NCBI GenBank assembly: GCA_044892525.1
Contig: JBJFYX010000150.1
Coordinates: forward strand, 62,001-126,000
DNA from: Schmidtea polychroa
Lineage: Eukaryota
Length of the DNA stretch: 64,000 nt
Direction: 5' to 3'
The notes under the pieces are model-generated. The model was not told where the DNA came from. It was given only the letters and a program-made list of their open reading frames with translations, and searched no databases. A program made the translations under genes and the position numbers. How positions within the stretch are numbered: the stretch's first letter is position 1; every line of letters starts with the position of its first letter. Positions 2,823 through 62,114 of this stretch are shown piece after piece.

Positions 2823-2848
2823 ATAATAATAATAATTATTATTATTAT
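2823..2848. repeat. Palindromic (AAT)n/(ATT)n junction between elements A and B
   Basis: ataataataataa|ttattattattat is a perfect 26-bp palindrome centred on AATT. Confidence 0.95.
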
Positions 2849-3056: not shown

Positions 3057-3069
3057 TCCCCCTCTTTTT
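3057..3069 (-). promoter_or_regulatory. Polypurine tract
   Basis: AAAAAGAGGGGGA abutting the TG of the 3' LTR. Confidence 0.9.
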
Positions 3070-4275: not shown

Positions 4276-4294
4276 GTCCAGACCACTAAGATGG

Positions 4295-5050: not shown

Positions 5051-5570
5051 AAGTCTTTGAAATGTTGCTGGTGCGGCTGCTATTTGTCGAAAATGCTGTT
5101 TTCAATTTTGATGCATCATCGAGTTCTACTTGATAATAAGCATTGCCTAAATCAATTGTCGAGAAAAGCTTTGCTCCGTCAAGAATATCTAATAATTCAT
5201 CAGTATTTGGAATGGGAAAAATCGGTCTTTCGGTTATATTATTTAAAGCACGGTAGTCCAAGCATATTCTTATATCACTACTGTTTTTCTTTTTAACACA
5301 TACTAATGGAGAATTCCAAGGAGATGTACATTCTGATATAATGCCATATTTCAACATTTCTTGAATATTTTCTTCAATTTTTTCTATTAAATGTATAGGT
5401 TGTCGTCTTGGGTTTATTACAATCGGACTACCTTTAGTAAGTATTTCATGCTTTAATAGTTCGGTTTTTCCAACATCCCATTTATGTTTCATAAAAATAC
5501 CGTCAAACGTGGAAATTAAATTATTTATAATCTTATCTTCACTTATGTGGTTCTTAAATGAATTTTCCAT
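5007..5570 (-). pseudogene. pol: RT N-terminal half
   Basis: SPWNSPLVCVKKK..RICLDYRALN..FPIP..FSTIDLGNAYYQV..KTAF; different frame from both neighbouring pol segments. Confidence 0.93.
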
Positions 5571-5578
5571 AATTGTAT

Positions 5579-6139
5579 TTATTTCGTTGTACGGTTTTCT
5601 ATTTGCAATTGCATTCCAAATCTTTCGAGAAAATCTATAACTCCTATTAACTTTGGGTTTATATCTTTGGCTACAACGAATTCTACTTTTTTAATATCAG
5701 AAATTTTATCAACTTTTACATTTAATAAAGTTTTACCGCAAATTTCAATCGGGCTATCATTCGCACATCTTAATTTTAAATTACTTGTAGTCATATTCAA
5801 ATTTCCAAGTTTTTTAAAAATATTATAATCAATCACACTTATTTTAGCTCCAGTATCTAATAGGCATACTAATTTTACATTATTAATCATCACGGAAACA
5901 CTGGGCCTTCCCTGCATTTTATCGTATACTATTATATCATTCTGTTTATCACGATTAAGAACATTTATTTCATTAGAAGTTAGGGGTGGATCTTTAAAAA
6001 CTTCATCCATACAAAATTTATTAATGTATATATTAATATAATTTCTATAATCAAAAACACCATCACAACAGTTATCATTCAAACTATCACAATCATTCAA
6101 ACTATCACAATCATTCAAATTCATACAACCCTTACTCAT
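5579..6139 (-). pseudogene. pol: Retroviral-type aspartic protease
   Basis: RPSVSVMIN..LLDTGAKISVI..LIGVIDFL. Confidence 0.88.
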
Positions 6140-6170
6140 ATCATTAATTACCTTTAATTTATTGCTCCGA

Positions 6171-6422
6171 TCACCTCCTTGTGTAGTGGAGCATTCCCAT
6201 TTGGGTACTCAAAATCAGCCTCTGGATTCTCGTCACCGAATGCAGCCACTGATTTATGGAGTTTTCGACGTCTGCCTGGAAATAACTCATGGCACTGATG
6301 TTTGAAATGTCCAGATCTTTTACAATGGGCACATTGAATATTGGGGCATTCAGATCTTCCACGTCGGAATCCATGTCATATGGTTCTGGTGGCTTGATAA
6401 ACTTTGCAATCGTGGTCGCCAT
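6171..6422 (-). pseudogene. gag: Gag N-terminal remnant
   Basis: ATG overlaps the LTR end and PBS; MATTIAKFIKPPEPYD resembles a gypsy gag start; only 83 codons, no capsid C-terminus or knuckle. Confidence 0.55.
6410..6421 (-). promoter_or_regulatory. Primer-binding site, tRNA-Arg type
   Basis: TGGCGACCACGA directly after the LTR; complementary to the tRNA-Arg(TCG) 3' end UCGUGGUCGCCA. Confidence 0.75.
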
Positions 6423-6631
6423 ATTAGCCACAGAGCTACAGGTATTAATAGAATCCATAACAAAAACACGTTTATTATAAAAACACAAATATTATTAAAA
6501 CAAATTATAACGTTAATTTGTTTGAGGAGTTTCTAAAAATAATAATTAATGTATAAGTAAGGATTTCAACATACAATCAAACATGCACAACATCATACCA
6601 TTATTTAAATACAAATTACAAAACGCCTCAC

Positions 6632-6632
<1 letters not shown>
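6422..6632 (-). repeat. 5' LTR of element B
   Basis: Direct repeat of 2846-3056. Confidence 0.95.
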
Positions 6633-11297: not shown

Positions 11298-11586
11298 AGT
11301 TTAATAAAATAAAATTTATTATCCACATGACAGAGCATCCAACTGACGAATTTACTCAAAAATACAAATTCAGTTGGAATATAAAGGTGATGACTACATA
11401 TTTAATAAAAATTTATGGAATATACGAAGTTCCAGCCTAAAAAAATATTCAAACGAGATTATATCATATACAAACATTTAGCTGCATGTTTCAATTGAAA
11501 CAAGTAAAGGATGAAAGTGGCAAGACCAAATTTTATTTTGCGTTTATTCATTCTGTCGTTTACAATAACGCAAAAAAGTTGTTAAT

Positions 11587-12216
11587 TTGTATGCCTTAAC
11601 CAGGAACAAATTTGATAGTGGCATTTTAAAAACATTTAAAATCCAAAACTCTCTTAAATCTGACGGTTTTGTGGTTGATTTAAAAATGGTGTATAACATG
11701 GTGTATACATATAAGAAGAAACTCGGACACAACATTGAAACACTCACAGATGAGATGTGGCAAACATTTCTGTCTGATCTTAACCCTCTCCGTGTAAAAA
11801 ATAATGCTGATATTTATAGTGACCCGTTCTATTCCCACAAAAACCGTTACAAAATGTGCCTTCAGCTTCATCCCGATGGATTCAAAGCTAGAAAAGGGAC
11901 ACATCTTTCTGTTTTCTTTTTCATAATGCGCGGTGAAAACGATGTACTTTTGCAATGGCCTATGAAACTGGAAGGACATCTTGCTTTAATGTCGAATATA
12001 TTCGACAAATATACGGAGAGGGTTAATAAAAATAATGAATTCTTGTATAGCTTTTAAATCGATCCATTGAGAATTACCATAGCTAGCGATAAACTCTTAA
12101 CTAGAGCAAGAACAGCTGCAAATTGGTGCATTGATGGAACCTACAAATTGATAAATATGGGATTTCCTGTTGTTGTGACAGGATTTACGGATTTGTTGAA
12201 TAGGGTTTTCTGGTAA
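11587..12216 (+). pseudogene. MULE transposase-like frame containing a TRAF MATH segment
   Basis: ORF 11587-12057 continues in frame past TAA into IDPLRITIASDKLL..WCIDGTYKLINMGFPVVVTGFTD (MULE DDE first-Asp motif) and ends at a GTAAGT donor-like site at 12213. Confidence 0.7.
11812..11967 (+). pseudogene. TRAF: TRAF-type MATH domain fragment
   Basis: IYSDPFYSHKNRYKMCLQLHPDGFKARKGTHLSVFFFIMRGENDVLLQWPM matches the TRAF-C consensus (S.PFY..GYKMCL..G..GTHLS.F..IMRGEYD.LL.WPF). Confidence 0.85.
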
Positions 12217-16273: not shown

Positions 16274-18002
16274 CACCAAACGCCACTGAGACCGTTTCCT
16301 ATAATAAAACAAGAAAATCAATAATTTTACATTATAGAAACATACATACTTACTTTGATTTCACGCTGATGTTCTCATTTATAGTGCAGTTAGATACATC
16401 TTATACTATAGAAATCTGAAAAGTGGAAGAAAAATTAAAAACTGCACACAAACCCAAGACATACTAAAAACACATACAAACTTTTGATTCATTGAAATGC
16501 ACAGCCGAGATACGTTACTACAATAATTCTATTTTAGACAATTTTTAGAAAAAAAAGATCGCTGAAAATATTTTAAAATATATTTTTATTGAAATTGTCA
16601 AGAGCAGATGAATTTGGTTCAATGTCTCTTCAATCCAGATTTGCTTTCCTGAAAGATGCCCTTCACGTTGAGCTCAGAAAAAAAATTACAGAAATTAAAA
16701 AAATTATTTTATTCATATTCGGCGATTTTTCCCAAAATGTTTTAGAAAAATACATATTTTTGGTAATTGATTTATTTAATTATAATTATAAACATATCTG
16801 ACTCACGTTGTTTCGAAATAATTCCAAAATACTTAAAAATAAATGTCATAAAATTCATAAAAAATCCCTGAAAATTAATTAAAAATAATTTATAATTATC
16901 CTGTTGATTAAAAGTAATATTTACGAACTTGAACAATGATCTCATATTTATATGGATCAAAATTCAAGTCTTAAAATTTACTTAAAATTTAACATCTTAC
17001 TTGAAAGTCATTTCTAAAATGACTAAAATAAATTTCCAAATAAATTTCAAATTCATGATGAATGATTAAATGTGATAATGAGTAAATGAACTGGTGAGAG
17101 AAATTGCTCTACACGCAAACCATCACTAGACCAAACACCACTGAGAATCATTTCCTATAATATAACAAAAAAATCAATAATCTTACATTATAGAAACATA
17201 CATACTTACTTTGATTTCATGTATGTTCTCATTTAGAGTGCAGTCAGATACATCTTATACTATAGAAATCTGAAAAGTGGAAGAAAAATTAAAAACTGCA
17301 CACAAACGCAACACATACGAAAAAACACATACAAACTTTTGATTCATCGAAATGCACCGCTGAGATACATTTCTATAATAATTTTATTTTAGACAATTTT
17401 TAGATAAAAAAAGATCGATGAAAAGTTTTAAAAATATATTTTTAATAAAATTTTCAAGAGCAGATGAATTTGGTTCAATGTCTTTTCAATCCATATTTGC
17501 TTTCCTGAAAGAAGCTTCTCATATTGAGCTCAGAAAAAAAAATAACAAAAAATTATTTTATTTTTATTATTCGACGATTTTTCCCAAAATGTTTTAGAAA
17601 GTCACATATTTTTGGTAATTCATTTATTTAATTATAATTTAAAACATATCTGACTCACATTTTTTCGAAAATATTCCAAACTGCTTGTCATAAAATATCA
17701 AAAATCCCTGAAAATTAATTAAAAATAATTTATAATTATGTTGACTAAAAGTAAAATTTAAGAACTTGAATGATCTCATATCTAAATGGATCAAAATTCA
17801 AGACTTTAAATTTACTTAAAATTAAATATCTTACCTGAAAGCCATTTCTAAAATGGCTAAAATAAATTTCCAAAAAACATTCATTATTGTAAGCAATTCA
17901 GTAAATTGATGATGATTAATTGGTAAATACAGCCAATTGGTGAGTGAATTGCTTTACACGCCAACTACCACTATAGAGAATGTATCTCAGTGGTGTTTGG
18001 TG
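16274..18002. mobile_element. Head-to-tail dimer of a TA-flanked MITE (TIR CACCAAACACCACTGAGA)
   Basis: Left TIR at 16274, second unit from about 17130, right TIR TCTCAGTGGTGTTTGGTG ending 18002; TA at both flanks; inserted in the 20-bp minisatellite. Confidence 0.85.
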
Positions 18003-20154
18003 TAGATTAGTAATATAGTATGTGGGTTAGTAATATAGTGTGTAGATTAGTTTTAGCCATTACACAACCATAAATTGTTTATGTGATAGACATAGTTAAC
18101 ATTAGAAATAGCGATGAGAATAATAATCGCAATTTCCGTGTCAATCAATAATTCCACAGCAATATATTTCAACTTTTACTGATATTACAATAATAACAAT
18201 AAAATTAATATAATATACTGATTTATTAGTACCACGCAAAATTATAAGTGATTTAAACTCAATTTTAAAGAGTACTGCTGGATATTTGAACCCAAGGGAT
18301 CATATCAATATCGGATCTTTTTAGTGAATTCTTAATAAACCTATAATGATTTTAATAGCCTCCAATATTAATCCTTAGAGTGGTTTTATCGGGTAATTGC
18401 TATCTAGTTTTAATGTTCATATTTCAATTCCAAATCGGCTTTTTCTTTATTTAATTTTTGTTATTTCGATTATTACATCACATTCAATTTGATTTGTTTG
18501 AATCATTAAACCTCAATTTTATGATGTTTATTTCATTTTCAACAAACTTTCTCTCTAGCAAAGTCAAAGTTTATTGAATTCATCTTTACAGATTTCAGAA
18601 AAATTTTTTTTGCTTGTTAGTTATTGATGGCGTTGACGTTTTTATGCATATATTTTTATTTAAATTATCTACATTATTAGTATTACATAAAATGTCATCA
18701 AAATTATTTATAAATTTAAAATTAAAATCAACATATATAGGTACGCCCTTAATCAATATATATTAATATAAAAGTATGACTTTATTTAAATTTTATTTAT
18801 CGATATACTACTTATATATTAAAAGTAATCTATTATCAAATAGATTGGAAATATTAAATTTATTGACAATTTTGCTTAATTTATAAATCATCCACATATA
18901 TTAATTATCGACATATTAATTATTGTTATATGTACGTCAGTAACTTTTGTTGATGTTGACAATATTATTACAGGGATATATCATTAAATCTAACTGTGTT
19001 ATACACTACTTTTAATTTTGCCATTATGTTATTGTTATTATTTTTCTTATTATTTTTATAACTTTTACAAATATATATTATTAAAACAAATCCTCAAATA
19101 AAGCTTGGGAAATTTTTAATGAATTTTAATGTTCTTAACTATTCTACATATTGCAATCATACATAATATAAAAATCACCATCACATTATTTAATAAACTA
19201 AACAAATTATGTGTGTCGATAATTAATCATTTTAATAAATTAATTAAATTATTAACAAAAAGGTTTAAAAAGATTTTTTTTGTAAACTTAAGTGCTTTGT
19301 AATTTGCTTTATAAATGTTTTATAAATTTAATTGCGTGATTATAAAAACTTGAGTACTCGACAATTTGTTTAATGGAGAGAAAATACCTTCTGTAGTATG
19401 CTAGCTTTATCTTGAAACAGACATATTGTTTTAAAAACTCAGTTTTTATTCAAATTTAAGAAATTTCAAATTTTTTCCAAATGCCACGTAGTCTTTCTTC
19501 CTTTCCACACATTCAGCTTTTGTTTGATTGTTTGATGAAGTTATTAATTACTTTTTATTATGTTGTTGATATTTTGAATATATGCAGAGCAAGGTAATTA
19601 CGATTTTGACCAACATTACAGAGACACTTCAGTGGCAGCTAGAATTTTACAATTAATTTCATAATAAATCACATTTTGTATGTTATCTTTGCATAAAACA
19701 CTCGCACACCTACAAAAAATATTTTAAATAAAGAATTATTAAATTATTTATTTTGCAATATGAAATTAATAAAAATCGCTGTATAAAATAATTAGATATT
19801 TTAATTTGTATACCACTAGAATAGTGTCTGCTAAAATGTGTGCCGTGAAATATTTAGGATAATTTAAATCTGTAATTGAAAAGATTTGCCAGCAAGAATC
19901 AAGATAAGAAAATTACAATGTATAAGACAAAGTACGTAAAATAATATAAGGATTTTTGTTATTACTACACTAAAGAATTTGTATATTTTTGTTTATATGA
20001 TAAGTTATATTTAAATTTTTTCGATATTTTTTATTTAGTGTGCCACAAAACAAAAGGCCGTTTCTTAGTGTGCAACGAAAGAAAGAAGTTTGACAGACAC
20101 TGCACTAGAACATACAAAATAACTGTAATTAATGTTAACCTGAAATTCAGACAG

Positions 20155-20188
20155 AGAACGGGCGTCAGTTCTGACGGGTTACAACTAG
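20155..20188 (+). mobile_element. Helitron-like 3' terminus
   Basis: Hairpin CGTCAG-TT-CTGACG, then CTAG (20185-20188) followed by T; 5' end not located. Confidence 0.65.
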
Positions 20189-21409
20189 TTTAATAAATAA
20201 AATAATAAATTATGATATATAAATATTTATATAAATTTTTAGTTAAATACATATCACAAAGATATTTTACTCTAAGAAAATAATTGATACTGTCAGAAAT
20301 AATATTTTATATTTTCTTTAAAAATCTTTAATAAAATACTTTATTTTTAAAGTTTTCTCACTGAAAAAACTCATTTATAATTAAAACCTTTATAATTAAT
20401 TTATTTTCCATAACCATTTTTACTAATTTCGTGGAAATTGTAGGAAATCAAGAATAAGAAATTTTTTTACTCCATTTGAGCATCATTATAATCATTATTC
20501 AGTGAGAGACATAGAAGGGGATTTCTAATGAAATTGTAGAGAAAACAATTTACCAAAACAAACCCGTACCTACAGCTTATTAAACAATAGATCATATCTC
20601 CTTGATTTCTGTCAATAAATGTCGTTCAAAATCTGATGTAAGCACTCTTCAAATAAGACAACATCTCTGATAATTTGACAAGGAAGAAAAGATTTTACTA
20701 AATTTTTAATTAAACAAAATTTATTAAAACTGATTTTATTTAAAAATATAATATATAATTTGTTAAATAATCCGGATATGATAAATGTCAGTAGCAATAA
20801 ATTTGCAATTATTATTTTCTGAAGTCAAAAACATTTATTTCAATATATTATTGAATCCTCACTTTTCGCACAAATTAAGAGACTGCAATTTTCATATCAT
20901 CAAACAGAGTTGTGCCAAAAACATTCATAAAATTTCAGTAAAAAATTATAAAATAGTTTTGTTGAGGATACTTAAGTAATAAAATAAAATAATTATTGAA
21001 ATGTATATAATGATTAGAGTATATGGTTAGGGACCCGCTAACTCACATACCCCCCTCACCTCCCGAAAATTTTTTTTTAAATTATAATTTTTTAAGATAT
21101 TTTATACTTTTTTAATATTTTCAACAGTTTTCAAGGGTTTTCAAGGGTTTTCTCGAAACGTGTCGCAAATTATTAAAAGTGATTGAGAAGTGAGGTTTTA
21201 TCACGTAAATGTCCAGTGAAAAAGAACCGCTAAATCGATAAACGAATTAGTTTAAAATTGTCCGAGTCAATGGTGAAAATATTTATTTTCCGGTGAAAAT
21301 TTACCAACAGTTTGATGATGCGCATTATTTGTTTTTTGCATAATTATAATGATGAAACGAATCAACTGTCAAAATAGATCGATGATATTGCGCAACACAT
21401 GTTAGGACC

Positions 21410-23125
21410 ATGCTGAAAATTTTTGGTAAAAGTCCTCAGTGCTTAGTAGAATTACTCCATATAACATTCACTAGCACTGGGGCAGAAATCAATGAGTTCT
21501 ATCTTGCTTATCAATTATTTAACTATTTTGCAGGAAACATTGATATGTCACAGGATCTTCGAATCGCAATATGGGAAAGTATCGGCACCAACTTTAGGAA
21601 CATCAGTTTAAACACTTTCAAATATGCCGATAAAATGGTCTTCGGAAGTTTCATCATAGGAGACCTTGTCCATGAACAGCACGTGGATTTCCTAAACGCG
21701 TTCGAAGCGGCCATAGAAATATGGCTGCTAAAAGTAACTAATAATCAAAATTACCTATCTAATTATAAAAATGTTTTCAAAAATAATACTGCTAATAATA
21801 TTTCTTATAAAGATAAAATTAAAAAAACACCCTTTGATAAAAATTATAAAAAAGACTCTCAAAGTATCAAATATATATCCTTTCTTAATAATAATCTTAA
21901 TATTAAATATTATAATGATTTTTTCATAAATGATTTTAATAATGTAAAATTTAATAATTTAAAACTTAATAATACTAAACTTAATAATAATGTAAAACTT
22001 AATATTGTAGAACCTAATAATGTAAAAATGAATAATGAAAAGCCTAATAACGTGAAATTTAATTATAAAAAGAGAAAAAGAAAAATTAACAAAATCAAAA
22101 ATAGAAAAATTAAAATATTTAAAGAAAATTTAAGGGAAAATTTGTTTAAATTTTCACCAAATTTCAGATCTGATGACCATGCTGAAAATTTTTTTCGTCC
22201 TCCTTCGGAGGACGAAAAGAATAATATACGCAGCTCGCCGGCCCGAGGCCGGCTCCCGGAAAATGTTGGCAGGAGACCTAAGAATAATACAATAACTCTA
22301 ATAAATCCACCTTATTCTATACCAAAACCGACCGTCAAAATTTGGAAACCAAAAACCTCAAACTATATTAACCTACCTAGACCCCACTACTCTAGTCCTA
22401 TACCAATAAAACCTATTAATACTCTAGATAATATGCATTTCGATTTATTATCTGCTAGGTACGATGTTGAAGTCCAAACAGATGACAATTCTAGATCTAA
22501 TACCGAATTACCGAGCGATGAACCTAATAATACAAACGAAGAAGATAATCTATTTATCATGAACACTGATCCACCAACAACCGAAAATTCAAAAAACTAT
22601 ACATCACTGAATGCCCATAATGTCAATATTATGGACGACAGCATTACTAAAACAAAACCGGATACTGAAAAACAGCCTACTAAAACTGCCAACAAAGAAG
22701 ATAATCTATTTATCATGAATACTTCTCTACCAACAGCCCAATTTCAAAACCACTCTACAACACTGAATGCCCACTATATAAATCTTATTGATGACAGTAT
22801 TATTGAAAAGAAGATGACAGATATTGAGAAACAACCTGATTCATATCCAGATTCAGAGTCATTCTCTGATTCTGATCCAGATTCCGAGTCTAGCTCTGAT
22901 ACTGATTCATACCCAGATTCTGACTCAATTTCTGAGTATGATCGAAATTATGCTTCCGTTCGTGTCTACATCACTGAATGCACATACACAGATTCAGACC
23001 CTCTTAACATCTGCAGCTCCGATTCCATTTCCGATCCTCCCTGTGATTCAGACTCCGATAATATCTCCAATTCAGATTCTACTTCCGAATCGTCCTATGA
23101 TGCAGACTGCAACTTGGATTTATAA
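21410..23125 (+). CDS. 571-aa orphan protein (conserved N-terminal domain, Asn/Lys-rich linker, ~52-aa duplication, Ser/Asp-rich tail)
   Basis: Intact ORF; first ~110 aa roughly 80% identical to the copy-2 translation, with visible synonymous changes (e.g. TTA CTC vs TTG CTT). Confidence 0.7.
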   Translation: MLKIFGKSPQCLVELLHITFTSTGAEINEFYLAYQLFNYFAGNIDMSQDLRIAIWESIGTNFRNISLNTFKYADKMVFGSFIIGDLVHEQHVDFLNAFEAAIEIWLLKVTNNQNYLSNYKNVFKNNTANNISYKDKIKKTPFDKNYKKDSQSIKYISFLNNNLNIKYYNDFFINDFNNVKFNNLKLNNTKLNNNVKLNIVEPNNVKMNNEKPNNVKFNYKKRKRKINKIKNRKIKIFKENLRENLFKFSPNFRSDDHAENFFRPPSEDEKNNIRSSPARGRLPENVGRRPKNNTITLINPPYSIPKPTVKIWKPKTSNYINLPRPHYSSPIPIKPINTLDNMHFDLLSARYDVEVQTDDNSRSNTELPSDEPNNTNEEDNLFIMNTDPPTTENSKNYTSLNAHNVNIMDDSITKTKPDTEKQPTKTANKEDNLFIMNTSLPTAQFQNHSTTLNAHYINLIDDSIIEKKMTDIEKQPDSYPDSESFSDSDPDSESSSDTDSYPDSDSISEYDRNYASVRVYITECTYTDSDPLNICSSDSISDPPCDSDSDNISNSDSTSESSYDADCNLDL

Positions 23126-23339
23126 GCTCAGCTATGTATCACGGTGAAATATCTTCAACATTTTTTATATATACCCTTATTTATATTTAATTTCTCATAT
23201 TTATATATATATATATGTGTATGTATGTATATATGTATGTATGTATATATACCCTTTATTTATATCTAACCTTCATATCACCATTATAAAACTATATTCT
23301 TTAAAAGCTTAATTATAATTAATTTAACTATATCTATAA

Positions 23340-24060
23340 ATTGAATTAATTGATATTTGTTTAAATTACTAATTATCTTGGAATTTGAAATTTTCAAATA
23401 TCTCAATTTAAATAATTTTACTATCATTATATACTAGATATAAAAAATACCCTTATCTATAATTTCCTATTATAAAATTATATTCATTAAAATTTAATTA
23501 ATTTGACTATATCTATACTTTAATCTCTTAAGGTTTGAATTAACTTGGATTTTGGTTTAATTTTAATTTAACTATATATATTCATCTTTTGAATACTAAC
23601 TATATTTAAAATTTATTGTATACATTATCCTATCTATATTTAATTAAATTTTATAATAAAATACTTTTTGAATTAAATAGGTAATAAAATACATTTTGAA
23701 TTTAATTGACACTTGTTTAAATTTTTTATAAATTATATGTACCCCTATCTATATTTATATTCATTAAAATTTAATTAATTTGACTATATCTATACCTTAA
23801 TCTCTTAAGGTATGAATTAACTTGGATTTTGGTTAACTATATATATATTCATCTTTTGAATACTAACTATATTTAAAATTTTATTGTATACATAATCCTA
23901 TCTATATTTAATTTAATTAAATAATTTTATAATAAAATACTTTTTGAATTAAATTGGTAATAAAATACATTTCGAATTTAATTGACAATTGTTTAAATTA
24001 CTAGTTATTTTGGAAATTGAGATTTTCAAATATCTCAATCTAAATAATTTAACTAAGTTA
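23340..24060. repeat. AT-rich internal tandem duplication (~280-bp unit)
   Basis: About 23475-23720 repeated at about 23755-24000; 23345-23425 repeated near 23980-24060. Confidence 0.8.
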
Positions 24061-24598
24061 CAATATATATGTATATATATTAAATACCCTCATTTATATT
24101 CGCTAATTTATATTCCTAATATTTAAATTAACTTTGATTTTTGAGTAAATTTTAATTTGACTATATATACTTATCATACTCCTCTTATGAATATTAACTA
24201 ATCTTAATTTAAAATTGCATTATCTCTCTAACTATAAATCTATACAACATCCTTCCTATATTTACTTTAATTGATATTAAACTACATTTAGAAATAAATT
24301 GATATGATTATCTGAATTATTCTGTTTCTTAAAAACATTCATAGCACTGACCGGAATGGGAAAACCCTATATCTATATACAATATATTTACTTATAATCT
24401 ACAGCAAATATAACCTGAATGAATCCAACCACATCCTTTGATGAATAAACCTGACAGAAGCCTTAACAAGCCTCTCCCAACAGCTACTACAGAACCTGAC
24501 CGAAGCCGCAACAATACTAAAACATCACCCGACAAACCTCCCACGTCCCACATAGGACTCAGATTGCAACTAAACTATCTGACATATTATCCGTGTAT

Positions 24599-24683
24599 AT
24601 TATCAGTGTAGGTCAATGTAGGAGCCCCTGTAGCGGCTCCGCCTCACTGATAATTCCTTTTTTTTTTTTTTTTTTTTTTTTTT
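24599..24683 (+). other. Conserved stem-loop followed by T26
   Basis: Outer stem ATTATCAGTG/CACTGATAAT, inner GGAGCC/GGCTCC; homolog at 59161-59216. Confidence 0.85.
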
Positions 24684-24857
24684 CAATTTTTTAGTTCTTA
24701 GTTTGTTGTATAATTATAACCACCTATCTTTAATAATACCTCTTCCTTTGACCTATCTTTCTAATACTTAATATAATATAATGTATAATATTTGACCACA
24801 AATGGAGTCTTCCAACTCCGCCCTACTTAATTAACTTTTAGTGCTCCTAACCACATA

Positions 24858-25606
24858 GAAGCCTCTCCTACTGAACCTGACAGAAGCCCTAACAAGCCTC
24901 TCCTACTGAACCTGACAGAAGCCTTAACAAGCCTCTCCTACTGAACCTGACAGAAGCCTTAACAATACTAAACCTGACAGAAGCCTAACAATACTAAAGC
25001 CTTAACAATACTGAACCTGACAGAAGCCTTAACAATACTGAACCTGACAGAAGCCTTAACAAGCCTCTCCTACCGAACCTGACAGAAGCCTTAACAAGCC
25101 TCTCCTACTGAACCTGACAGAAGCCTTAACAAGCCTCTCCTACTGAACCTGACAGAAGCCTTAACAAGCCTCTCCTACTGAACCTGACAGAAGCCTTAAC
25201 AATACTAAACCTGACAGAAGCCTAACAATACTAAAGCCTTAACAATACTGAACCTGACAGAAGCCTTAACAATACTGAACCTGACAGAAGCCTTAACAAG
25301 CCTCTCCTACCGAACCTGACAGAAGCCTTAACAGGCCTCTCCTACTGAACCTGACAGAAGCCTTAACAAACCTCTCCTACTGATCCTGACAGAAGCCCTA
25401 ACAAACCTCTCCTACTGATCCTGAAGCCTAACAATACTAAACCTGACAGAAGCCCTAACAATACTGAACCTGACAGAAGCCTAACAATACTAAACCTGAC
25501 AGAAGCCTTAACAATACTGAACCTGACAGAAGCCTTAACAATACTGAACCTGACAGAAGCCTTAACAATTCTGAACCTGACAGAAGCCTTAACAAGCCTC
25601 TCCTAA
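24858..25606 (+). repeat. Minisatellite of 35-bp and 27-bp units with a higher-order repeat
   Basis: Units aagcctctcctactgaacctgacagaagccttaac and aatactgaacctgacagaagccttaac; block at 24964 repeated at 25201. Confidence 0.95.
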
Positions 25607-28600
25607 CAATTCCTAACATCAACAACTAATACCGAAACCTGACAGAACTCTTACAGAACGTTTAATGTAGGAGTATTACACTCCAGCATCTATTGTTTAT
25701 CCAAATAAAAGCTTCAGATTACATAAGGGTGAGAATCGATCTCCCCTTCTTGGCCAGGAGGCCCGAGAAATTTAATAAAATAAAATTTGATTTTTTTTTT
25801 TTCTAAATTTATCATTGTGCATTTATTTTATCGGGGTTTTGTGACTTATATAATACAGTACAGATAAAATTTTGTCAACAAACAGTCTTCCGTTTACTTA
25901 TACAATTGAAATTTCTGTGTTTATGCATTGACATTTTGATGTGCTAAGGCATATACGCATGAATTAAAACGTGCCAATCCAATTAGTCCATGCGCCATTG
26001 GGTGGATTCAATCAGCAATAAGTTTTTATTACAATTATTATTAAAGTTTTTATTAAGAATAATATTATTATTTTTAAATTATTAAGACTTTTGTTATGAA
26101 TTACAGAATTATCGAAAATTATTATTATTTTTAAAAAATTATTATTATTATTATTTTAAAATATTTAACAATACCATATAGGAGATATTTAGGCCATTTT
26201 GAGTATTTTTAGTTAATTTATATACATCAGTATTATCTGACATTTTGAGGTATCAATATATACAACAAATCAATAAAATAAAGACCATTTGGGTAGCATA
26301 TTGTAATTTATATATTCTAATATTGTAAAACTGGTTCTAAGAGTAAACATAAATCTAAATTATTGTGCAATTACATTCATTACAACCTAATAAACCTAAA
26401 ACGATATAATTTCACAGTAACTATTATTGACTCATAGCTAAATACTGACTATTTCCTTTGAAACATTGATATTTACCAATAAGAAAATTGTCAATTTAAA
26501 TAGATATATTCAAAACATTTCCACCTTAACCGATCCCTCACCAAATATTTCTACCCCTTTAAACATTCAACCGACTATATCCCTTTACAAATCCTATATC
26601 TCCATCTTAACCGAACCGTTACTAAATCCAACCGACTATATCCCTTAATTCCACCAACTTGAGCCCTTTAACATATCAATTCTCATAAAATCCATAGACA
26701 ATTATTCAAAATATGAATTTTATTTAATTGTTACAGACATCAAACATTTTTTCATTGAAATAATTTAGTAGCTAAATTCATGTAGTAAGAGCTCACTAAA
26801 AGATCAAAATTCACTAAAATCAATATTTTCTACAAATATTTCACCCCATTTACCATCAAATACCTAACTAGGGATGATAATTTCTCATTGATTGATCATA
26901 ATTTTTCATCGATTCTTGAAAATGATGCACAAATTAAGCTTTATAAATATTCAAGTAAATAATAATGAAATGTGGAAAATAAAATAATAANNNNNNNNNN
27001 NNNNNNNNNNNNNNNNNNNNNNNNNNNNNNNNNNNNNNNNNNNNNNNNNNNNNNNNNNNNNNNNNNNNNNNNNNNNNNNNNNNNNNNNNNNNNNNNNNNN
27101 NNNNNNNNNNNNNNNNNNNNNGTAACCAGTACTTTTGTGAGCAATACCCATAAAGGGACAAAATATCTTGTCGGATAAACTCAGAATATATATAATAAAA
27201 CTATAAAAAAAATAATAATTATAAAAATTGAGTTGACCTACATATTTTAAAAATATTTTCTAAGTATTTGAGTTGACCTAAATAATCTTTGAGTTGACCT
27301 ACATATTTTTGAGTTGACCTACTTAATTTTTTAAAGACGTTTTTGAGTTGACTTACATAAAAACTATAGAATATTTTGAGAAAAAATCTTGAAAACCCTT
27401 GAAAATTGTAAAAAATTATAAACTTTCTGAGTAAAACCCTTGAAAAATATAACATTTTTAAGAAAATCCTTGAAAACCCTTGAAACCCGTTAAAAATCAT
27501 AAAAAATTATAAAAATTTATAAAACATTATAAATTTTTGAGTCGACCTACATAATTTTTATAAAAAAAATTTCGGGGGGGGGGTATGTGAATTTGCGGGT
27601 CCCTAACCATCTACTGATTAGGGAAAAATACAAAAAAATAAGGGGAATTATGTTTTAGATTGCTGAAAAAATAGTGAGTAAAAAAATTGAAAATAAGAAG
27701 TGAATAACAATAATCAATAAAATAAAACAATAAAATATTACAAGGTCATACAGCATATAAAGGAAAACTAAAATAGAAAATCAATTAGAAATAGAATTTC
27801 CTTATCTCGCCTTTAAAAGGAAACACAATTTGAATCAAAAGACACAATTTGTAAAGGAGGAAAAGGAAACAGAATTTGAAAAGAAAAAAAAAGAAAACAG
27901 AATTAAAAACAAAATGCAAAGTGAAGTATGAAATTACTGGAGAAAACAATGTCAAATCGAAGAAGCAAAATAAAACCAAATAAAGTTATCAGTCGGGAGT
28001 ATCAATTTATTTTAAATTAAAGCCATGACAGCCACTAAATTGAAATATTCAAGTAGTTTGGAATTCCAAGTTGTATTGTAAACGTGATAATCTGCTCAAA
28101 GAATTGCTAATAGCATTCAAGTCGTTGTAATATTGGATGATTATTGTCGCTGATAATCATTTGCATTAAACAATAAAAGTTTATATTATCTAGAATTCGA
28201 TATTTTTGTTAAACAAGGCATGCTTTGGAGTCAGATCAATAATTGTTAATTTCATATTCCACTTACGACCAAAGAATTTTAAAAAATTTGTAAAACACTT
28301 TTGTATAATTTGTTTATTTTACAACTTGATTTTTATTTGTTAATAAAAGTTTTCCATCTTTTCCCATTAAACATTTTTAAATTTTTTATTTTTTCTTTTA
28401 AATTACCAAACTTTTCAACTTTATAAGGTTTTAATATTTTAAATACTGAAATTTCGTTTTTAAAATTCTTTCATCTTAATATTTCCAATTATCGTATCGA
28501 CTTCCTTATCTTTGAACAAATAGCTTTTTTCGGTTACCATTTCAAATAAACAGGTTTTTATTTAAAAATTATACAATTATACAATATTATTCTTGAGAAC

Positions 28601-30117: not shown

Positions 30118-31570
30118 TACCTAAATCCAAAATATAAAAGTCTCTAAAATCTAAAAAAAATCGATAAAATTATAGTATAGGAACACACAAACTTACTTGT
30201 GTGTAAAAACATAATTTTCCGAAAGTTACACCAAACACCGCTGAGAACCGTTTCCCATAATATAACAAAGAAATCAATAATCTTCTTTTATAGAAACATA
30301 CATACTTACTTTGATTTCACGCTGATGTTCTCATTTATAGTGCAGTGTACATCTTGTACTATAGAAATCTAAAAAGTGGAAGAAAAATTAAAAACTGCAC
30401 ACATGCAAAATATATACTAAAAGACACATACAAACTTTTGATTCATAGAAATGCACAGCTGAGATACGTTTCTATAATAACTTTATTTAAGACAATTTTT
30501 ATAAAAAAAAGATCACTGTAAATTTTTTAAAATATATTTTTAATGAAATTACCAAGAGCAGATGAATTTGGTTAAATGTCTTCAATCCAAATTGATCTCA
30601 GAAAACAATTACAAAAATTAAAAAAGTTATTTTATTCATATTCGGCGATTTTTCCCAAAATGTTTTAGAAAAATTCATATTTTTGGTGATTGATTTATTT
30701 ATTAAATTAAAATTAAAATATATTTGACTCACATTTTTTCGAAATAATTCCAAAATACTTTAAGATAAATGTCATAAAATTCCTAAAAAAAACCCTGAAA
30801 ATTAATTAAAAATAATTTATAATTATACTGTTGATTAAAAGTAATATTTAAGAACTTCAATAATGATGGATCAAAATTCAAGTCTTAAAATTTACTTAAA
30901 ATTTAATATCTTACCTGAAAGCTATTTGTAAAATGGCTAAAATAAATTTACAAAATATGATGAGAAATCATGAAAAATTCATTAAATTGGTGTGTGAGCA
31001 ATTTCTCTACACGCCAACCACCGCTATAGAGAATGTATCTCAGTAGTGTTTGGTGTAAAGGTTTTATATAAGAATTGAAAAAGTGACAGAAAAATAATTT
31101 TACATACAAACACAGCACACATAATATAAATACATGAAATTTTTTATTGCCTTTTTTATTCCGAAAGTTTAAAGTAATTAACTTATTGTTAACATGTCAT
31201 TATTTTTAATATATCAAAAAATCATGGGGGAAAAAACTTTAGATTTTGATTTGAACAACTCTACTTTGAGCTTTCGAGAAAAGACGACAAAACATCGTAA
31301 GATCTATTTATAAAGTATTTTTGAAGTTAATATTTCTTTAGATTTTCAGATATTTCTCTGGAAACGCTACCTTTTTGCGAAGGTTAAAGAATTTTTTCAT
31401 TTAATTACAAATAATTAAAATATTTTACAGTACATCAGATATTTCTTGTCAAACGACTTTGTGTGAAGGTAGCATTTCTAATATTCAACAAAGTCCATCT
31501 ACATCCTTGGATTTGCAGAAAAAAATTCGAAAATCGTATATTTTAATAACTTGTTTAATAAAAATAATAT
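30118..31570 (+). mobile_element. Partial copy of the TA-flanked CACCTAAATC element, interrupted by a MITE
   Basis: 30118-30226 and 31058-31570 are the reverse complement of about 63407-63300 and 63300-62600; right end approximate. Confidence 0.75.
30229..31055. mobile_element. TA-flanked MITE (827 bp), same family as 16274-18002
   Basis: TIR CACCAAACACCGCTGAGA / TCTCAGTAGTGTTTGGTG; TA duplication supported by the empty site near 63295 (minus strand GAAAGT-TA-AAAGTG). Confidence 0.9.
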
Positions 31571-57374: not shown

Positions 57375-59160
57375 TTAAATTAAACAATATTCGGAGTTCA
57401 TAAAAATAAATTTACAGTTTTTACTTGTTCATCACGATGAAATGGAATCTAAAAGTATTACTATATTATATTAAGGTAAGGATTGCACCAGACGTAAAAT
57501 TTGACCTAATAATTTGTAACTTGGAGAATAATTTAAACTAACCTATTTGACCTTAAAATGTCCTACTTTCATGGTTGCTATGATAACCACGTGGTTTTCA
57601 TGGTAATAAATAATTTACTTAACTGACCAATATAGAAAACATTTCGACTTCTTTTTTAATGGTTGTCACATATATCTGACACAAACATATCTATAATGCG
57701 ACTGTAATATTTTCAAATAGTGGGTTAGGTGTGTAGAAAATGTTTTGTTACATTCGCGTCCCACTAACAACTACACATAATTATTTTAATTGGCCACAAG
57801 CGACGTTGGTACTGTGATTTAACGGGGGCTGTCAGCAAAAGGTGAGTCCTTTCACCAGGACTGCTAATGACCTGGCGAGACTCTGGGTTCATGGGCTACC
57901 ATAGAAGGTATTGTGTTCCATTTTCTCTTGTTTCTTCATCCTTTTGATTTATTCAATTTCTTAGATGTCGCCATCGACCTCGAATTTCTATGTTTAAAAC
58001 TTTTACTGAAAATGAGTTTCAAAGAGTTAGAAAATACGAGTTTATCTTATTAATGTTTTGTCTCAAATCATTTGCGATAAGGTTACCATATTATATTAGA
58101 GTTGTTCACATTACACAAATATTGTATACAAAGTTGTTATTAATTTATAATCAATTAAATTTCATTTTTAGGTTTCTAAATGTTCTAAGTAGTGTTTCTT
58201 CTCGAGAATTTCCCGAGAATTTTTTTTTTAAAAATTGTAATGTTTTTTTTATATTTTTTCGAGCAAATTATTTTAACCGCATCAGTTCGGCATGTCTGGG
58301 ATTTTATGTCTCTATTAAACATTCCATTTTCTTCGAATACAGATATTGGAAGATATCGAGTGCACATGCGTTACTGGTGCTATTAAATAACTGTTTGTGT
58401 GTCTGCATGTAAGTGAGCGAGCGAGAAAGAAAGAACGCACGCATGCGTCACTATTTATTATAAAAAAAATCAAATTTTATTTCATGTAAATCCATCTGGC
58501 ATAAAGCCGAAGGGGAGAACGGTTCTCACCCTTATGTAATCTACAGCTTTTATTCTTTTAGTCTTCGGATGCTAGAGTTAATAACTCCCGCATCAAACGC
58601 GGTTTTCCCTGAAAACTTCAGTCAGGTTTGGTATCAGATAATCCTTTCTGAAGCTCCTGGCATTGGCTCATTCATATTTTATCTCATTGAGGTTGTTTTT
58701 TTTCCCGGTAAGCATCGTTGAGCATAGTAGGGGATAAACATGGCTAAGCATAAACATGATCAGTCATGGCCCATATAGATGCAACGGACATTCATTCAAA
58801 GGTTAGTTCTTTCGGATTGATTAGGAGAGGCTGAGCAACTCAAGATGAGTTTAGGTTTCCGCCGGATCCAAGTGGATTCTGAAGTAGTTCAAGCATATCT
58901 GGACGGATTTCCCAGTTTTAGCAGATGGAGTAGCAATGGTAAGGAGAGGCTGTTCAAGCTTCTGTCTGATTAGTTTAAATGAGGTTATGGGCTCTAAAAA
59001 ACGGAATTTAATAATTCGGAGTAAGAAGACTCCATTTGTGATTTTTGTAGCGGTCAAATATTATACATTATATTATAGTAAAGATTGGAAGGAATGGTGT
59101 AAAGGAAGAGGAGGTTTTATGAATAGGTTGTTATATTAGATATATAAACAACTTAAAGGT

Positions 59161-59216
59161 ATTATCAGTGAGGCGGAGCCCCTACAAGGACTCCTATATT
59201 GACCCACTGATAATAT
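59161..59216 (-). other. Conserved stem-loop just downstream of the stop codon
   Basis: ATTATCAGTG..GGAGTCC-TTGTA-GGGCTCC..CACTGATAAT; homolog of 24599-24654. Confidence 0.85.
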
Positions 59217-59224
59217 ACATACGC

Positions 59225-60524
59225 TTAGTTGCGTTTTCTTTTCTTCTTTCTAATATTACAATTCTTTAGTTCAGGTATTCGATTCGTCATTTTATTTTTT
59301 AGTTTTTCGGTTATTCTTTTTCTCTGTTGAATGAAGGATTCATATACACACTTAACCGTGTGAGATGTTAGGTAGGTATCATATTTTAGAGCTCTTACGC
59401 TATAGTTAGTAAGAAAGATTTCGAAGAAAAAATTTCTGTATTCTTTTTCTTTTTTGTTATCATCATCAGGCATACTTTTTTTGCCATTCCTTAACTTCCG
59501 AATAGCAATACTTCGCATTTCAATGCTGTCTTCAAGGAAATTGGAATAAATCGCATTATAAGTTTCTTCGGTTTGATATTTACAATATTCGAAGTTAGAT
59601 AGGTCATCAATAGTGCCAAGGATTTCGAAGAACACATTCATAAGTGTCTTGTTTTCAATTTTCTTTTTATCAATCGTATTTGGTTTAGGTAATATTTTGA
59701 AATTAATTTTTAGGTATGGTAATTGTTCAGATTTTTTGACCATATTGGACTCACCTCTGAAGGTCAAATCAGGTCTCAGCTTCTTTATGTCAGACAGTTT
59801 ATTAAATATAAATAGTTCAGTAATGTCTGGAAGATATTTACCGTAGGTTAGCTCGGATATATTCTTAGTACATTGAATCTCATAGAAACCATTCATCAAT
59901 TCTTTCTCCTCATAGTATTCGTCATTATTACGTTTCTTCGGAATTTGTTTATCATTAAAAGGTTTTTCAATTTTTGGCATTGGTTCAAGTTTCTTGACGT
60001 TTTTAAGCTTGTTAATAAGGGTCAGATTATCTTCTCTTTCTCTTGATAGTTTCATATAGTATTCCACGTCAAGGTCTGTCATTCCGTAATCGGTTGGGTA
60101 TTCGTTGTCATTTGTAAGTGTACAGCCAAAAAAGTAATTAATATCTTCTTTACTGTAGTCGAGTTGGGTCTGAAGATCGTCTGAGTTGAGATAAGAAATG
60201 GAATCAGAATTAGGAACAGAATCAGAATTAAGATCAGAATCTGAATTAAGATCAGAATCCAAGTTGGGATCAGAATCAGAATTAAGATCAGAATTAGAAT
60301 TAAAATCGGAAACAGAATTCTGATCGGCATCAGAATTTGGATCGTAATCAGAATTTGAATCGGAATCAGAATTTGGATCATTATGAGTAATACATTCATC
60401 AATATCATTTTTAGTTTCAATTATACTATCATCAATAAGATTGATATTATAAGCAGTCGGCGATTTAGGGGATTTTGGAATTTGGGCTATTGGTAGATCA
60501 ATATTCAGGTTTATTTGGTTATCC
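59225..60524 (-). CDS. C-terminal part of the element protein: Ser/Asp tract plus ~300-aa unknown domain ending in a basic NLS-like tail
   Basis: Frame is open from 60524 (NLIDDSII, shared with copy 1) through the track ORF 59225-60262 to RKKKRKRN*; joined to upstream parts only via frameshifts. Confidence 0.6.
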
Positions 60525-61088
60525 TTTTTTTACTTTGGTATTAGCCAAGATTGGTATTATCGGGATTCGTCGGGTTATTTTTAATAATGTTAAATGGTTT
60601 GGGAATTATTTGGGCAGTATCAATATTAGGTTCTTTAATTAGTTCTTCGTCATCTTTTTTGACTTTATCATCATTCTTAGTGTTTGTTAATAAGTATTCA
60701 AAACGCATATTATACTTAATCTTAAATTTTTTACGTTTAAAAATTTCGAGGTCAGATATTTTATCTTTTACGACAGAGTTATTGATTTTTATATATTTAG
60801 ATATTAAAAATAGTTCATATCATATTATACTTAATTTTATGTTTTCTACGTTTAAAGATTTCTAGGTTAATAATTGGTTTTAGTGGAATAGGATTAGAGT
60901 AGTGGGCTCTTGGTAGGTTAATATAGATTGAATTTTTTGGTTCCCAAATTTTGACGGTCGGTTTTGGTATGGAGTAAGGAGGATTGATAGGGTAATTTCT
61001 CATTTGAGTTAATTCCTTTATCTTACATCTCTTGCTAACATTTTTCGTGAGTCGGCCGGAGGCCGAAGAGCTGCGTTTGCTCAAAAAT

Positions 61089-61964
61089 TTAATATCCAAT
61101 GTAACATTTGCTGGGAGCCGGCTTCGGCCGGCGAGATGTGTATATTATCCTTTTCATCCTCCGAAGGAGGACGAAAAAATTTTTAGCATGGTCATCGGAT
61201 CTGAAATTTGGTGGAAATATAAACAATTTATCCCTTAAATTTTCTTTGAATTTTTTAATTTTTCTATTTTTAATTTTTCTCTTTTTATAATTAAGTTTCA
61301 CGTTATTAAGTTTTACGTTATTAAATTTTACTTTATTAAATTTTACGTTAAAATCATTTATGAAAAAGTCATTAAAATAAATAATATTAAGATTATTTTC
61401 AAAAAATGATATATTTTTAATTCTCCGAGTATCTTTTTTACATTTTTTATAAATATTTTTATCAAAAGGATAATTTTTATTTTCATTAATTTTACTTTTA
61501 TCGTCATTACGTATACTTTTAGCATTAGAATTTACATTAGTAGTTTTATTTTTAGAATCCTTATAAGATTTATTATTAATAATTTTATTTTTAAAAGCAT
61601 TTTTAAAATCATTTGATAGGTAATTCTGATTATTAATTACTTTTAACTGCCATATTTCTATAGCCGCTCCAAACGCATTTAGGAAGTCAACGTGTTGTTC
61701 ACGGACTAAGTTTCTTATGATGAAGCTTCCAAAGATAAGTTTATCGGCATATTTGTAAGTGTTTAAACTTATGTTCCTAATGTTGATGCCAATATTTTCC
61801 CAAATTGCGATTCGGAGATCCTTCGACATTACAATGGTTCCTGAAAAATAGTTAAGAAGCTAAAAAGCAATAAAAAACTCATTGATTTCTGCCCCAGTGC
61901 TAGCGAATGTTATATGAAGCAATTCTACTAAGCTCTGAGGAATTTTACCAAATATTTTTAGCAT
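61089..61964 (-). pseudogene. N-terminal part of the element protein, one stop, then a frameshift
   Basis: MLKIFGKIPQSLVELLHITFASTGAEINEFFIAF*LLNYFSGTIVMSKDLRIAIWENIG.. homologous to 21410; PPYSIPKP block continues in 60815-61099. Confidence 0.8.
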
Positions 61965-62114
61965 GGTCATCGAATCACGTGTCAAGGGCAAACAAATGAC
62001 AACAATTTCTTTTTCACACTGTACTTGCACTATGGAAGACAGTGGTACTTGCACTTTCAACAAGACAGGTGCGTGTATCCTCAGCAATAAAATTTTGCAA
62101 CCTCTCATCGTATA

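What the first reader, a model, noticed from the sequence alone, without database searches (positions are those of the whole stretch)
22192..22253. GC-rich hairpins whose stable-loop signatures lie on the strand antisense to the ORF
Seen: a 12-bp stem at 22192-22218 (copy 2: 61151-61177, one G-C to G-T change) and GCCGGCC-CGA-GGCCGGC at 22237-22253 (copy 2 variants GCCGGC-TTCG-GCCGGC 61117-61132 and TCGGCC-GGA-GGCCGA 61052-61066). Stems are kept while sequence changes. Antisense loops read C(GAA)G, C(GGA)G and C(TTCG)G. Known: C-GNA-G triloops are extra-stable in ssDNA and cUUCGg in RNA. Inference: the antisense strand exists single-stranded and folded.
Basis: partly seen in the sequence, partly recalled or inferred. 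Interest (0 to 1): 0.7.

Follow-up and report, generated by a model that had tools for sequence, protein, structure and literature searches.

The report
Hairpin marks retrotransposon's rebuilt front end
These hairpins sit inside a flatworm jumping gene exactly where its front section ends when that section comes out doubled, in two distantly related families, and they likely act as a stop sign in single-stranded copy DNA that would let the element rebuild its own promoter, much as retroviruses rebuild their ends.

Summary
The hairpins are real (z about -5). They belong to a non-autonomous derivative of a planarian 28S-rDNA-targeting, endonuclease-bearing LINE (LIN24/LIN26-type site); RT-encoding partners share its ends. 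The antisense strand is the element's first-strand cDNA, so no ssDNA replicon or ribozyme is needed. Hairpin 1 is kept through five rewritten stems. Antisense C-GNA-G loops dominate (hairpin 2: 89 of 100; hairpin 1: 34 of 50), though window copy 1's second loop is not GNA and the 'cUUCGg' is a one-copy accident. New: the element's 5' terminus repeats the 11-29 nt just upstream of hairpin 1, whatever that sequence is in each subfamily. Doubled fronts end 0-11 nt past that point, inside the hairpin base. A second family (RT 27-29% identical, different 28S site) does the same in 10 of 28 loci. A conserved TTGTTT box upstream and two copies starting at the inner repeat point to a promoter there. 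Best model (inferred, untested): the cDNA hairpin stalls second-strand synthesis, which transfers to the terminal repeat and regenerates an upstream promoter, LTR-style. The scan had already noted the doubling (e1-7907765) but not, in the lines shown, the hairpin landmark.

The parts
21406..25802 (+). Copy 1 of a non-autonomous derivative of a 28S-targeting RLE LINE (4.4 kb, no RT)
   Evidence: Both ends are shared by dispersed copies with unrelated flanks; no Pfam hit in its ORF; 3' end shared with RT-encoding elements
21406..21424 (+). 5'-terminal repeat (L5), a copy of the sequence just upstream of hairpin 1; slightly truncated in this copy
21437..21490 (+). 28S-rDNA-like piece (antisense to rRNA) ending exactly at the element's insertion site
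   Evidence: Matches the left flank of rDNA-inserted copies L031-L036 and L060; same site as LIN24_SM/LIN26_SM (PMC4640811 S6 Fig)
21410..23125 (+). ORF1-derived reading frame running through both hairpins
   Evidence: 34% identity over 96 aa and 48% over 50 aa to ORF1 of autonomous L093
22142..22150 (+). TTGTTTAAA box about 24 nt upstream of where 5' ends pile up; putative core promoter (inferred)
   Evidence: Present in 79 of 81 loci at -43 to -55 from the A|T junction; TTGTTT invariant in 15 of 15 representatives
22166..22193 (+). Internal repeat L, ending in the T-run that forms the base of hairpin 1; putative start-site region
   Evidence: two copies (L163, L164) begin here with unrelated flank
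22192..22218 (-). Hairpin 1, 12 bp, antisense loop C(GAA)G; marks the 3' boundary of the front-end duplication
22228..22255 (-). Hairpin-2 unit (conserved leader plus 7-bp stem 22237-22253); antisense loop here TCG, family-wide mostly GNA
24596..24654 (+). 3'-UTR stem-loop block with sense-strand T.G wobble in many copies (RNA-type contrast)
25704..25802 (+). 3'-terminal stem-loops, AATAAA-like run and poly(T) tail shared with autonomous partners
58462..61976 (-). Copy 2 of the same non-autonomous family (older, frameshifted)
61950..61976 (-). 5'-terminal repeat of copy 2, with a substitution in the A5T5 junction
61151..61177 (+). Hairpin 1 of copy 2 (antisense loop GAA; one pair G.T on the sense strand)
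61117..61132 (+). Degenerate hairpin-2 unit of copy 2 (likely loop inversion plus 1-nt loss; source of the apparent cUUCGg)
61052..61066 (+). Second hairpin-2 unit of copy 2 (antisense loop GGA)

Best explanation
Hairpin 1 lies at the exact boundary of a front-end duplication in these planarian 28S-targeting LINEs and their non-autonomous derivatives, and it likely works as a strong-stop in the single-stranded first-strand cDNA that would let the element rebuild its promoter. Shown: the element reads L5 - 28S-like piece - A - L - hairpins - body - poly(T); at 28S sites many copies read 28S - A - L - [28S-like piece - A - L - hairpins - body]. Inferred steps: (1) RNA starts in L5, driven by a promoter at the end of an upstream A. 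(2) After target-primed reverse transcription, the upstream 28S strand anneals to the 28S-like piece of the cDNA and primes the second strand. (3) Synthesis stalls at the C-GNA-G cDNA hairpin. (4) The nascent end, which is L, transfers to the free anti-L5 end of the cDNA and copies the whole element, so a fresh A-L lands upstream. Off-target copies lack this upstream A and are probably dead ends. A would act like U3 and L like R of an LTR.
For: (a) L differs completely between subfamilies but matches L5 within each element, and always abuts hairpin 1. (b) In 56 of 81 loci with a detected 5' repeat, identity runs 0-11 nt past the A|T junction into the hairpin base and never through the loop. 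(c) A second family with ORF2 only 27-29% identical and a different 28S site has 10 of 28 loci with a doubled front ending 3 nt into a hairpin with the same TTC/GAA loop. (d) 5' ends of 53 non-tandem copies lie 11-29 nt upstream of the junction (52 at 25 or less, mode 23), below a TTGTTT box found in 79 of 81 loci; 2 of the 50 hairpin-1 matches are copies that start at the inner L. (e) The A5T5 junction varies in 16 of 43 terminal copies against 4 of 46 internal copies (Fisher p = 0.002), with some variants shared by sister copies, as expected of an error-prone transfer point inherited through RNA. (f) Antisense GNA loops with a free middle base and an antisense G.T pair. Among GCNNNGC DNAs only GNA loops form the extra-stable mini-hairpin (PMC13037366, passages). 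(g) The tandem junction also appears as a contig loose end in one of four runs laid.
Against: There is no RNA or biochemical evidence; the start site, promoter, stall and transfer are all inferred. A first-strand jump between L5 and L gives the same tandem product, and sequence cannot fully separate the two. Loops are not invariant: 16 of 50 hairpin-1 matches are not T-N-C; sense GAA occurs in 6 of 79 loci; hairpin 2 reads CGA in the youngest non-autonomous subfamily and in L093. Stems can be homogenised by template switching at palindromes (PMC3874155, passages), so compensatory changes need not mean selection. The G.T polarity rests largely on one long-lived pair; rare arm types include sense-strand G.T too. 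The tandems in unplaced rDNA contigs may be few independent events. In 25 of 81 loci no terminal repeat was detected (truncated copies, short windows or weak matches). The loop counts come from patterns that demand exact stems.
Confidence: 0.5

Rival explanations
1. The duplication is made during first-strand synthesis. RT reaches the RNA 5' end, re-anneals through L5 to the inner L of the same or another RNA and copies A again (a TART-like jump). The hairpin would only expose L in the RNA or in the RNA:cDNA hybrid.
For: It gives the same tandem structure. Such a jump was proposed for TART's direct repeats (PMC1636488, passage), and R2 RT template jumping is noted in PMC2718515 section 18. The sense RNA folds as well as the antisense.
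Against: A jump from the RNA 5' end would put errors at about -23, not at the A5T5 hairpin base where they are seen. It does not explain why homology always stops in the hairpin base, nor the GNA polarity. The sense cUNCGg register is 4.5-5.4 kcal/mol worse than the triloop in all 8 stems tested.
Confidence: 0.2
2. The palindromes are transcription elements: double-stranded protein-binding sites, or template-strand hairpins that damp the inner promoter copy so that full-length RNA from L5 dominates.
For: They lie 25-90 nt downstream of the putative inner start site. Only 2 of 50 hairpin-1 matches are copies starting at the inner L. The hairpin-2 leader is conserved in sequence, not only in pairing. 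Template-strand GNA hairpins serve as promoters for phage N4 polymerase (PMC13037366, passage).
Against: The hairpin-1 stem is rewritten wholesale, which is unlike a base-specific binding site. This reading does not by itself explain why duplications end in the hairpin base in two families. It may be true for hairpin 2 while hairpin 1 is the stop.
Confidence: 0.17
3. The hairpins have no function of their own. They are self-correcting palindromes inside an ORF1 peptide motif, and the duplications end there because any polymerase slips at them.
For: Both hairpins keep one reading frame in nearly all long ORFs. Loop inversions and frequent loop changes show mutational activity at the palindrome.
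Against: The peptide changes freely across stems (RPPSEDE / SRVPSEHE / RPPAGDE / SCPSAKK). GC-rich third positions persist in an AT-rich genome. The same layout recurs in a family at 27-29% RT identity.
Confidence: 0.08
4. The region is a self-cleaving ribozyme or part of an antisense RNA or ssDNA replicon.
For: Strong folding on both strands. R2 elements carry 5' HDV-like ribozymes (PMC3774820, abstract in search listing).
Against: No Rfam ribozyme hit in the window at E up to 5. The hammerhead-like CTGATGA is CCGATGA or absent in most subfamilies. The structures are plain triloop hairpins. No Rep/HUH domain was found in the ORFs scanned.
Confidence: 0.05

Closest known systems
LIN24_SM and LIN26_SM (planarian NeSL-related, 28S-specific RLE LINEs; PMC4640811 passages and S6 Fig parts 1-2 of 3)
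   Same: Same 28S insertion point and orientation, poly(T) tails with occasional poly(A), a 3' end close to LIN26_SM's, and relaxed specificity with many off-target copies.
   Different: S6 Fig shows only 3' junctions for these two families. The passages and figure parts read describe no internal hairpin, terminal repeat, doubled front or non-autonomous ORF1-only derivative. The sequences were not compared directly (no Repbase here).
LIN9_SM (same paper)
   Same: The second family here (L070, L183-L210) uses the LIN9_SM site. S6 Fig lists both true and degenerate 28S-like 5' junctions from one contig, which fits a doubled front.
   Different: The doubling and its hairpin boundary are not discussed in the passages read; the terminal sequences differ.
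Drosophila TART direct repeats and HeT-A upstream promoter (PMC1636488 and PMC5537684, passages)
   Same: A non-LTR element with a repeat of its 5' end, transcription starting inside the repeat, a proposed RT jump to restore upstream sequence, and an LTR-like unit from promoter to promoter.
   Different: TART's second repeat lies in the 3' UTR and is long; here it is 25-35 nt, 0.4-1.7 kb inside ORF1 and capped by a triloop hairpin. The jump proposed here is on the second strand and is coupled to a captured target-site piece.
R1/R2 5' junction formation by cDNA-target annealing (PMC2718515, sections 8 and 18)
   Same: Target-derived sequence near the RNA 5' end anneals to the upstream target and primes the second strand.
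   Different: In R1/R2 the tag is terminal and yields a precise junction; here it lies behind a short leader, and the front comes out doubled up to a hairpin.
LTR retroelement strong-stop and strand transfer (recalled, textbook)
   Same: A short repeat used for transfer restores an upstream promoter (works-like, inferred).
   Different: No integrase, PBS or full terminal repeats; integration is target-primed; the stop would be a DNA structure, not a template end.
GNA mini-hairpins in phage G4/RSF1010 origins and N4 promoters (PMC13037366, passages)
   Same: C-GNA-G triloop on a short GC-rich stem in single-stranded DNA.
   Different: Here it sits in a eukaryotic retrotransposon's cDNA, inside an ORF; its stability was not measured.

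Membership tests
NeSL-related RLE non-LTR retrotransposon (LIN24/LIN26 type), autonomous partner | RT domain | tested here: met
   RVT_1 at E 9e-29 (L075) and 1e-30 (L084); 131 genomic matches, many in 1087-1088-aa frames
NeSL-related RLE non-LTR retrotransposon (LIN24/LIN26 type), autonomous partner | C-terminal CCHC finger and PD..D-x-K restriction-like endonuclease | tested here: met
   Read by eye in L093 ORF2 and L075; motif definition recalled
NeSL-related RLE non-LTR retrotransposon (LIN24/LIN26 type) | Insertion at the LIN24/LIN26 28S site with a constant 3' end, poly(T) tail and 5'-truncated copies | tested here: met
   L031-L036, L060, L061 and truncated L070-L073 against S6 Fig
NeSL-related RLE non-LTR retrotransposon (LIN24/LIN26 type) | Phylogenetic placement with named Repbase families | not testable with these tools
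   No Repbase sequences available
Autonomous LINE (window copies themselves) | Encodes RT and endonuclease | tested here: not met
   No RT in the window copies' ORFs or in three long sister ORFs
Non-autonomous LINE derivative retaining ORF1 (HAL1/SIDE-like; names recalled) | Shares both termini and ORF1 homology with an autonomous partner and has spread on its own | tested here: met
   (150 matches listed)
LTR retrotransposon | Integrase, full-length terminal repeats with TG...CA ends, short fixed TSD | tested here: not met
   No integrase in the element ORFs scanned; ends unlike; no regular TSD in 32 rows
Penelope-like element with hammerhead pLTR | Hammerhead core and GIY-YIG/PLE RT | tested here: not met
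   No Rfam hammerhead in the window; core motif not conserved; partner ORF2 is RLE-type
R2-type HDV-like ribozyme | Nested double pseudoknot 3' of a cleavage site | tested here: inconclusive
   No Rfam hit in the window; Rfam on fetched loci returned no result; no de novo pseudoknot search was run
TART-type non-terminal repeat | Second repeat copy in the 3' UTR | tested here: not met
   The repeat lies inside ORF1, 364-1672 nt from the 5' end
GNA mini-hairpin DNA | GNA triloop closed by C-G, middle base free | tested here: met
   89 of 100 and 34 of 50, on the antisense strand
GNA mini-hairpin DNA | Extra thermal and nuclease stability of the folded strand | not testable with these tools
   DNA parameters give equal energies for both strands of perfect stems

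The most novel reading that the evidence does not exclude
Planarian NeSL-type LINEs run a programmed strong-stop and strand transfer on the second strand. A GNA mini-hairpin in the cDNA, a short terminal repeat and a captured piece of the target together rebuild an upstream promoter at each on-target insertion. This would be an LTR-like replication step evolved inside target-primed retrotransposons and shared by lineages only 27-29% identical in RT, and the first DNA-strand structural signal known to steer non-LTR integration.
Probability: 0.45. Interest if true: 0.85.

Novelty: new variant of a known kind. Interest (0 to 1): 0.68.

Why it matters
How non-LTR elements make their second strand and keep a promoter is still open (PMC13486585 abstract; PMC2718515 section 18). 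Here a 27-nt hairpin, a 25-35-nt repeat and a 55-nt target copy give a compact, directly testable answer. It would also explain why target specificity is kept while most copies land elsewhere: only on-target insertions would regain a promoter. It offers a living model for how LTR-like ends can arise, and it bears on engineering site-specific retrotransposon insertion.

Tried and rejected
Hammerhead: the CTGATGA...GAAA look-alike at 22170-22218 is not conserved, and Rfam found none. Helitron, Polinton, DIRS, Penelope and ssDNA-virus readings were dropped once RT-RLE partners and 28S junctions appeared. Splice-site reading of the AG before L and the GT after L5: not kept in the autonomous subfamilies. 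Sense-RNA cUNCGg tetraloops: the register is disfavoured in 8 of 8 stems. Folding energies cannot pick the strand. Expression: no RNA holder listed; the one guessed-RNA run laid had no contigs on the stretch, which is no evidence either way; contigs cannot show start sites. Rfam on fetched loci gave no result, so the 28S identity of the flanks rests on their match to the 28S lines in PMC4640811 S6 Fig. The '22 non-canonical' count printed was not used, because it scores a subfamily-normal base as a variant; 16 of 43 and 4 of 46 were counted by hand, after dropping three truncated 5' ends and seven duplicate loci. No covariance model or formal R-scape-type test was run; pair counts are loop-anchored tallies. 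Literature searches listed no paper describing this hairpin-bounded duplication; Repbase Reports and the 2003 R5 paper (seen only as a reference line) are not in the library, and part 3 of S6 Fig was not read. Scan look-ups by sequence and by words returned nothing.

Full report
Observation. Two details fail. The loop at 22244-22246 is TCG on the antisense strand, which is not GNA. The C(TTCG)G at 61117-61132 is seen only in window copy 2 and its duplicate locus among the copies printed, where it reads as an inverted loop with one base lost.

Host and element. The genome is AT-rich, 781 Mb, with four large contigs. It is planarian-like by its mir-753 matches (the link of that family to planarians is recalled) and by flanks that match the Schmidtea 28S lines in PMC4640811 S6 Fig. 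The two window copies (21406-25802 + and 58462-61976 -) belong to a dispersed family with sharp ends; its N-terminal domain has 150 listed matches. It has one ORF and no RT. It ends in AAAATAAAATTTGA plus poly(T); 2 of 69 tails are poly(A). Copies L031-L036, L060 and L061, and the 5'-truncated L070-L073, sit antisense in 28S rDNA at the LIN24_SM/LIN26_SM site. Elements with the same 3' end encode a 1088-aa RT-RLE protein, and ORF1 of one of them is homologous to the window ORF. So the window copies are non-autonomous derivatives of a NeSL-related LINE, and the strand antisense to the ORF is the first-strand cDNA.

The hairpins across the family. Hairpin 1 keeps its position while the stem is rewritten: five fully paired stems of different sequence among 79 loci. 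Its sense loop is T-N-C in 34 of 50 exact-stem matches; 2 are inverted GAA and 14 are other. Hairpin 2 has T-N-C in 89 of the first 100 of 168 matches, with all four middle bases. That loop is a codon whose middle base changes the amino acid, so the protein does not explain it. Antisense these loops read C-GNA-G, the only triloops that form the extra-stable DNA mini-hairpin in the GCNNNGC series (PMC13037366, passages). The commonest hairpin-2 stem (55 of 133 units) has C.A on the sense strand, which is G.T on the antisense; a 3'-UTR stem of the same element has T.G on the sense strand and longer loops. Sense C-TNC-GG also spells cUNCGg, but that register costs 4.5-5.4 kcal/mol more than the triloop in 8 of 8 stems. 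Against this polarity: CGA loops in the youngest non-autonomous subfamily and in L093, sense GAA in 6 of 79 loci, some sense G.T pairs in rare arms, and the known tendency of palindromes to be rewritten by template switching (PMC3874155, passages).

What the hairpin marks. Each full-length element begins with a copy (L5) of the sequence just upstream of hairpin 1 (L). L is unrelated between subfamilies but matches within an element. Of 81 non-duplicate loci, 56 show the repeat. In 53 it reaches 11-29 nt upstream of the A|T junction (mode 23); in 3 it is a whole doubled front of 658, 709 and 965 nt or more. On the hairpin side, identity stops 0-11 nt past the junction, never through the loop. 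The remaining 25 are truncated, cut by the fetch window or below my threshold. In rDNA the doubled front begins where a 55-nt 28S-like piece of the element meets the true 28S flank. The two fronts are identical in L032, L035, L099 and L088, and differ at 2 sites at the 28S end in L060. One of four runs laid shows the tandem junction as a contig loose end; that run may be the assembly's own sample.

An independent family. An element at the LIN9_SM site, with ORF2 only 27-29% identical, has a hairpin with the same TTC/GAA loop about 610 nt inside. Of its 28 loci, 10 have a doubled front that ends 3 nt into the hairpin arm and is followed by a short bridge and a 28S-like piece; 16 join 28S directly to a single front, 1 is truncated and 1 is unclear. 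The rDNA contigs may repeat a few events, and single fronts could also arise by recombination between doubled ones.

Promoter clues. A TTGTTT box lies 43-55 nt upstream of the junction in 79 of 81 loci. The two exceptions, L163 and L164, begin at the inner L itself, 23 and 21 nt upstream of the junction, with unrelated flanks. That fits an RNA 5' end at that position. The A5T5 junction is altered in 16 of 43 terminal copies against 4 of 46 inner copies (p = 0.002). Some variants are shared by sister copies (L042/L047, L053/L178, L065/L167), so the junction is inherited through RNA yet was made by an error-prone step at the hairpin base.

Mechanism (inferred). RNA starts in L5 from a promoter at the end of an upstream A. 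After target-primed reverse transcription, the upstream 28S strand anneals to the 28S-like piece, as R1 tags do (PMC2718515, section 18), which leaves anti-L5 free. The second strand stalls at the cDNA hairpin, transfers through L to anti-L5 and copies the element, restoring A upstream. This explains the concerted evolution of L5 and L, the boundary in the hairpin base, the junction errors and the DNA-type loops; I put it at 0.5. A first-strand jump as proposed for TART (PMC1636488, passage) gives the same product (0.2). A role in damping the inner promoter is possible, above all for hairpin 2 (0.17). No function (0.08) and a ribozyme or replicon (0.05) are unlikely.

Novelty. The family type and target are published (PMC4640811, PMC5035012, passages). 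This scan had noted the 28S-like piece and the doubled front on other DNA (e1-7907765), which I confirmed here. Searches listed no paper on a hairpin-bounded duplication or a cDNA structural signal in these elements; Repbase Reports and the R5 paper were not available. Verdict: new variant of a known kind, interest 0.68.

Noticed in passing
window 2846-6632 and 43-1776 (-): Frameshifted gypsy-like LTR element (protease, RT, RNase H, integrase) between 211-bp repeats at 98.6% identity, with a separate zinc-knuckle gag ORF beside it.
   Followed up: no
window 16918-16978, 17755-17812, 30845-30892, 62256-62317: Four mir-753-like hairpins, below the Rfam gathering score, inside a dispersed AT-rich repeat, which suggests a repeat origin or spread of this miRNA family.
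   Followed up: no
window 41548-43386 (-), 54209-55765 (-), 11569-12057 (+): hAT-like transposase fragments; an intronless 518-aa RING-finger ORF; a MATH/TRAF domain fragment.
   Followed up: no
window 18097-27997 versus L038; copy 2 versus L045: Copy 1 with its flanks is 100% identical to a locus on C1, and copy 2's locus recurs about 6 Mb away on C1, so this small contig may be a haplotig or a mosaic.
   Followed up: partly
L093 versus L096: ORF2 is 99% identical but the 5' module (A, L and hairpin-1 stem) is entirely different, suggesting swaps of the promoter module between lineages.
   Followed up: partly
L100 about 1080-1120, L106 about 810-850: [quoted passage not shown]
   Followed up: partly
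L031 and L047 3' ends: Poly(A) replaces the usual poly(T) right after an AATAAA-like run; LIN26_SM shows the same two tail types in S6 Fig.
   Followed up: partly
L087 flanks; L061 5' flank: A 34-bp target-site duplication in one copy, while the other rows show none longer than 8 nt; L061's upstream flank resembles 28S sequence from downstream of the site, a possible long duplication.
   Followed up: no
L077, L078, L080-L082: Tandem arrays of 3' fragments of the autonomous element with a period of about 2.9 kb near chromosome ends.
   Followed up: no
L102, L120, L125, L126, L172, L177, L046, L087: Recurrent inversion of the hairpin-1 loop (TTC to GAA) in several lineages, a footprint of template switching at the stem.
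   Followed up: partly
window 24849-25605: A tandem array of roughly 35-nt and shorter units in the 3' UTR, shared with autonomous L075 and L093.
   Followed up: no
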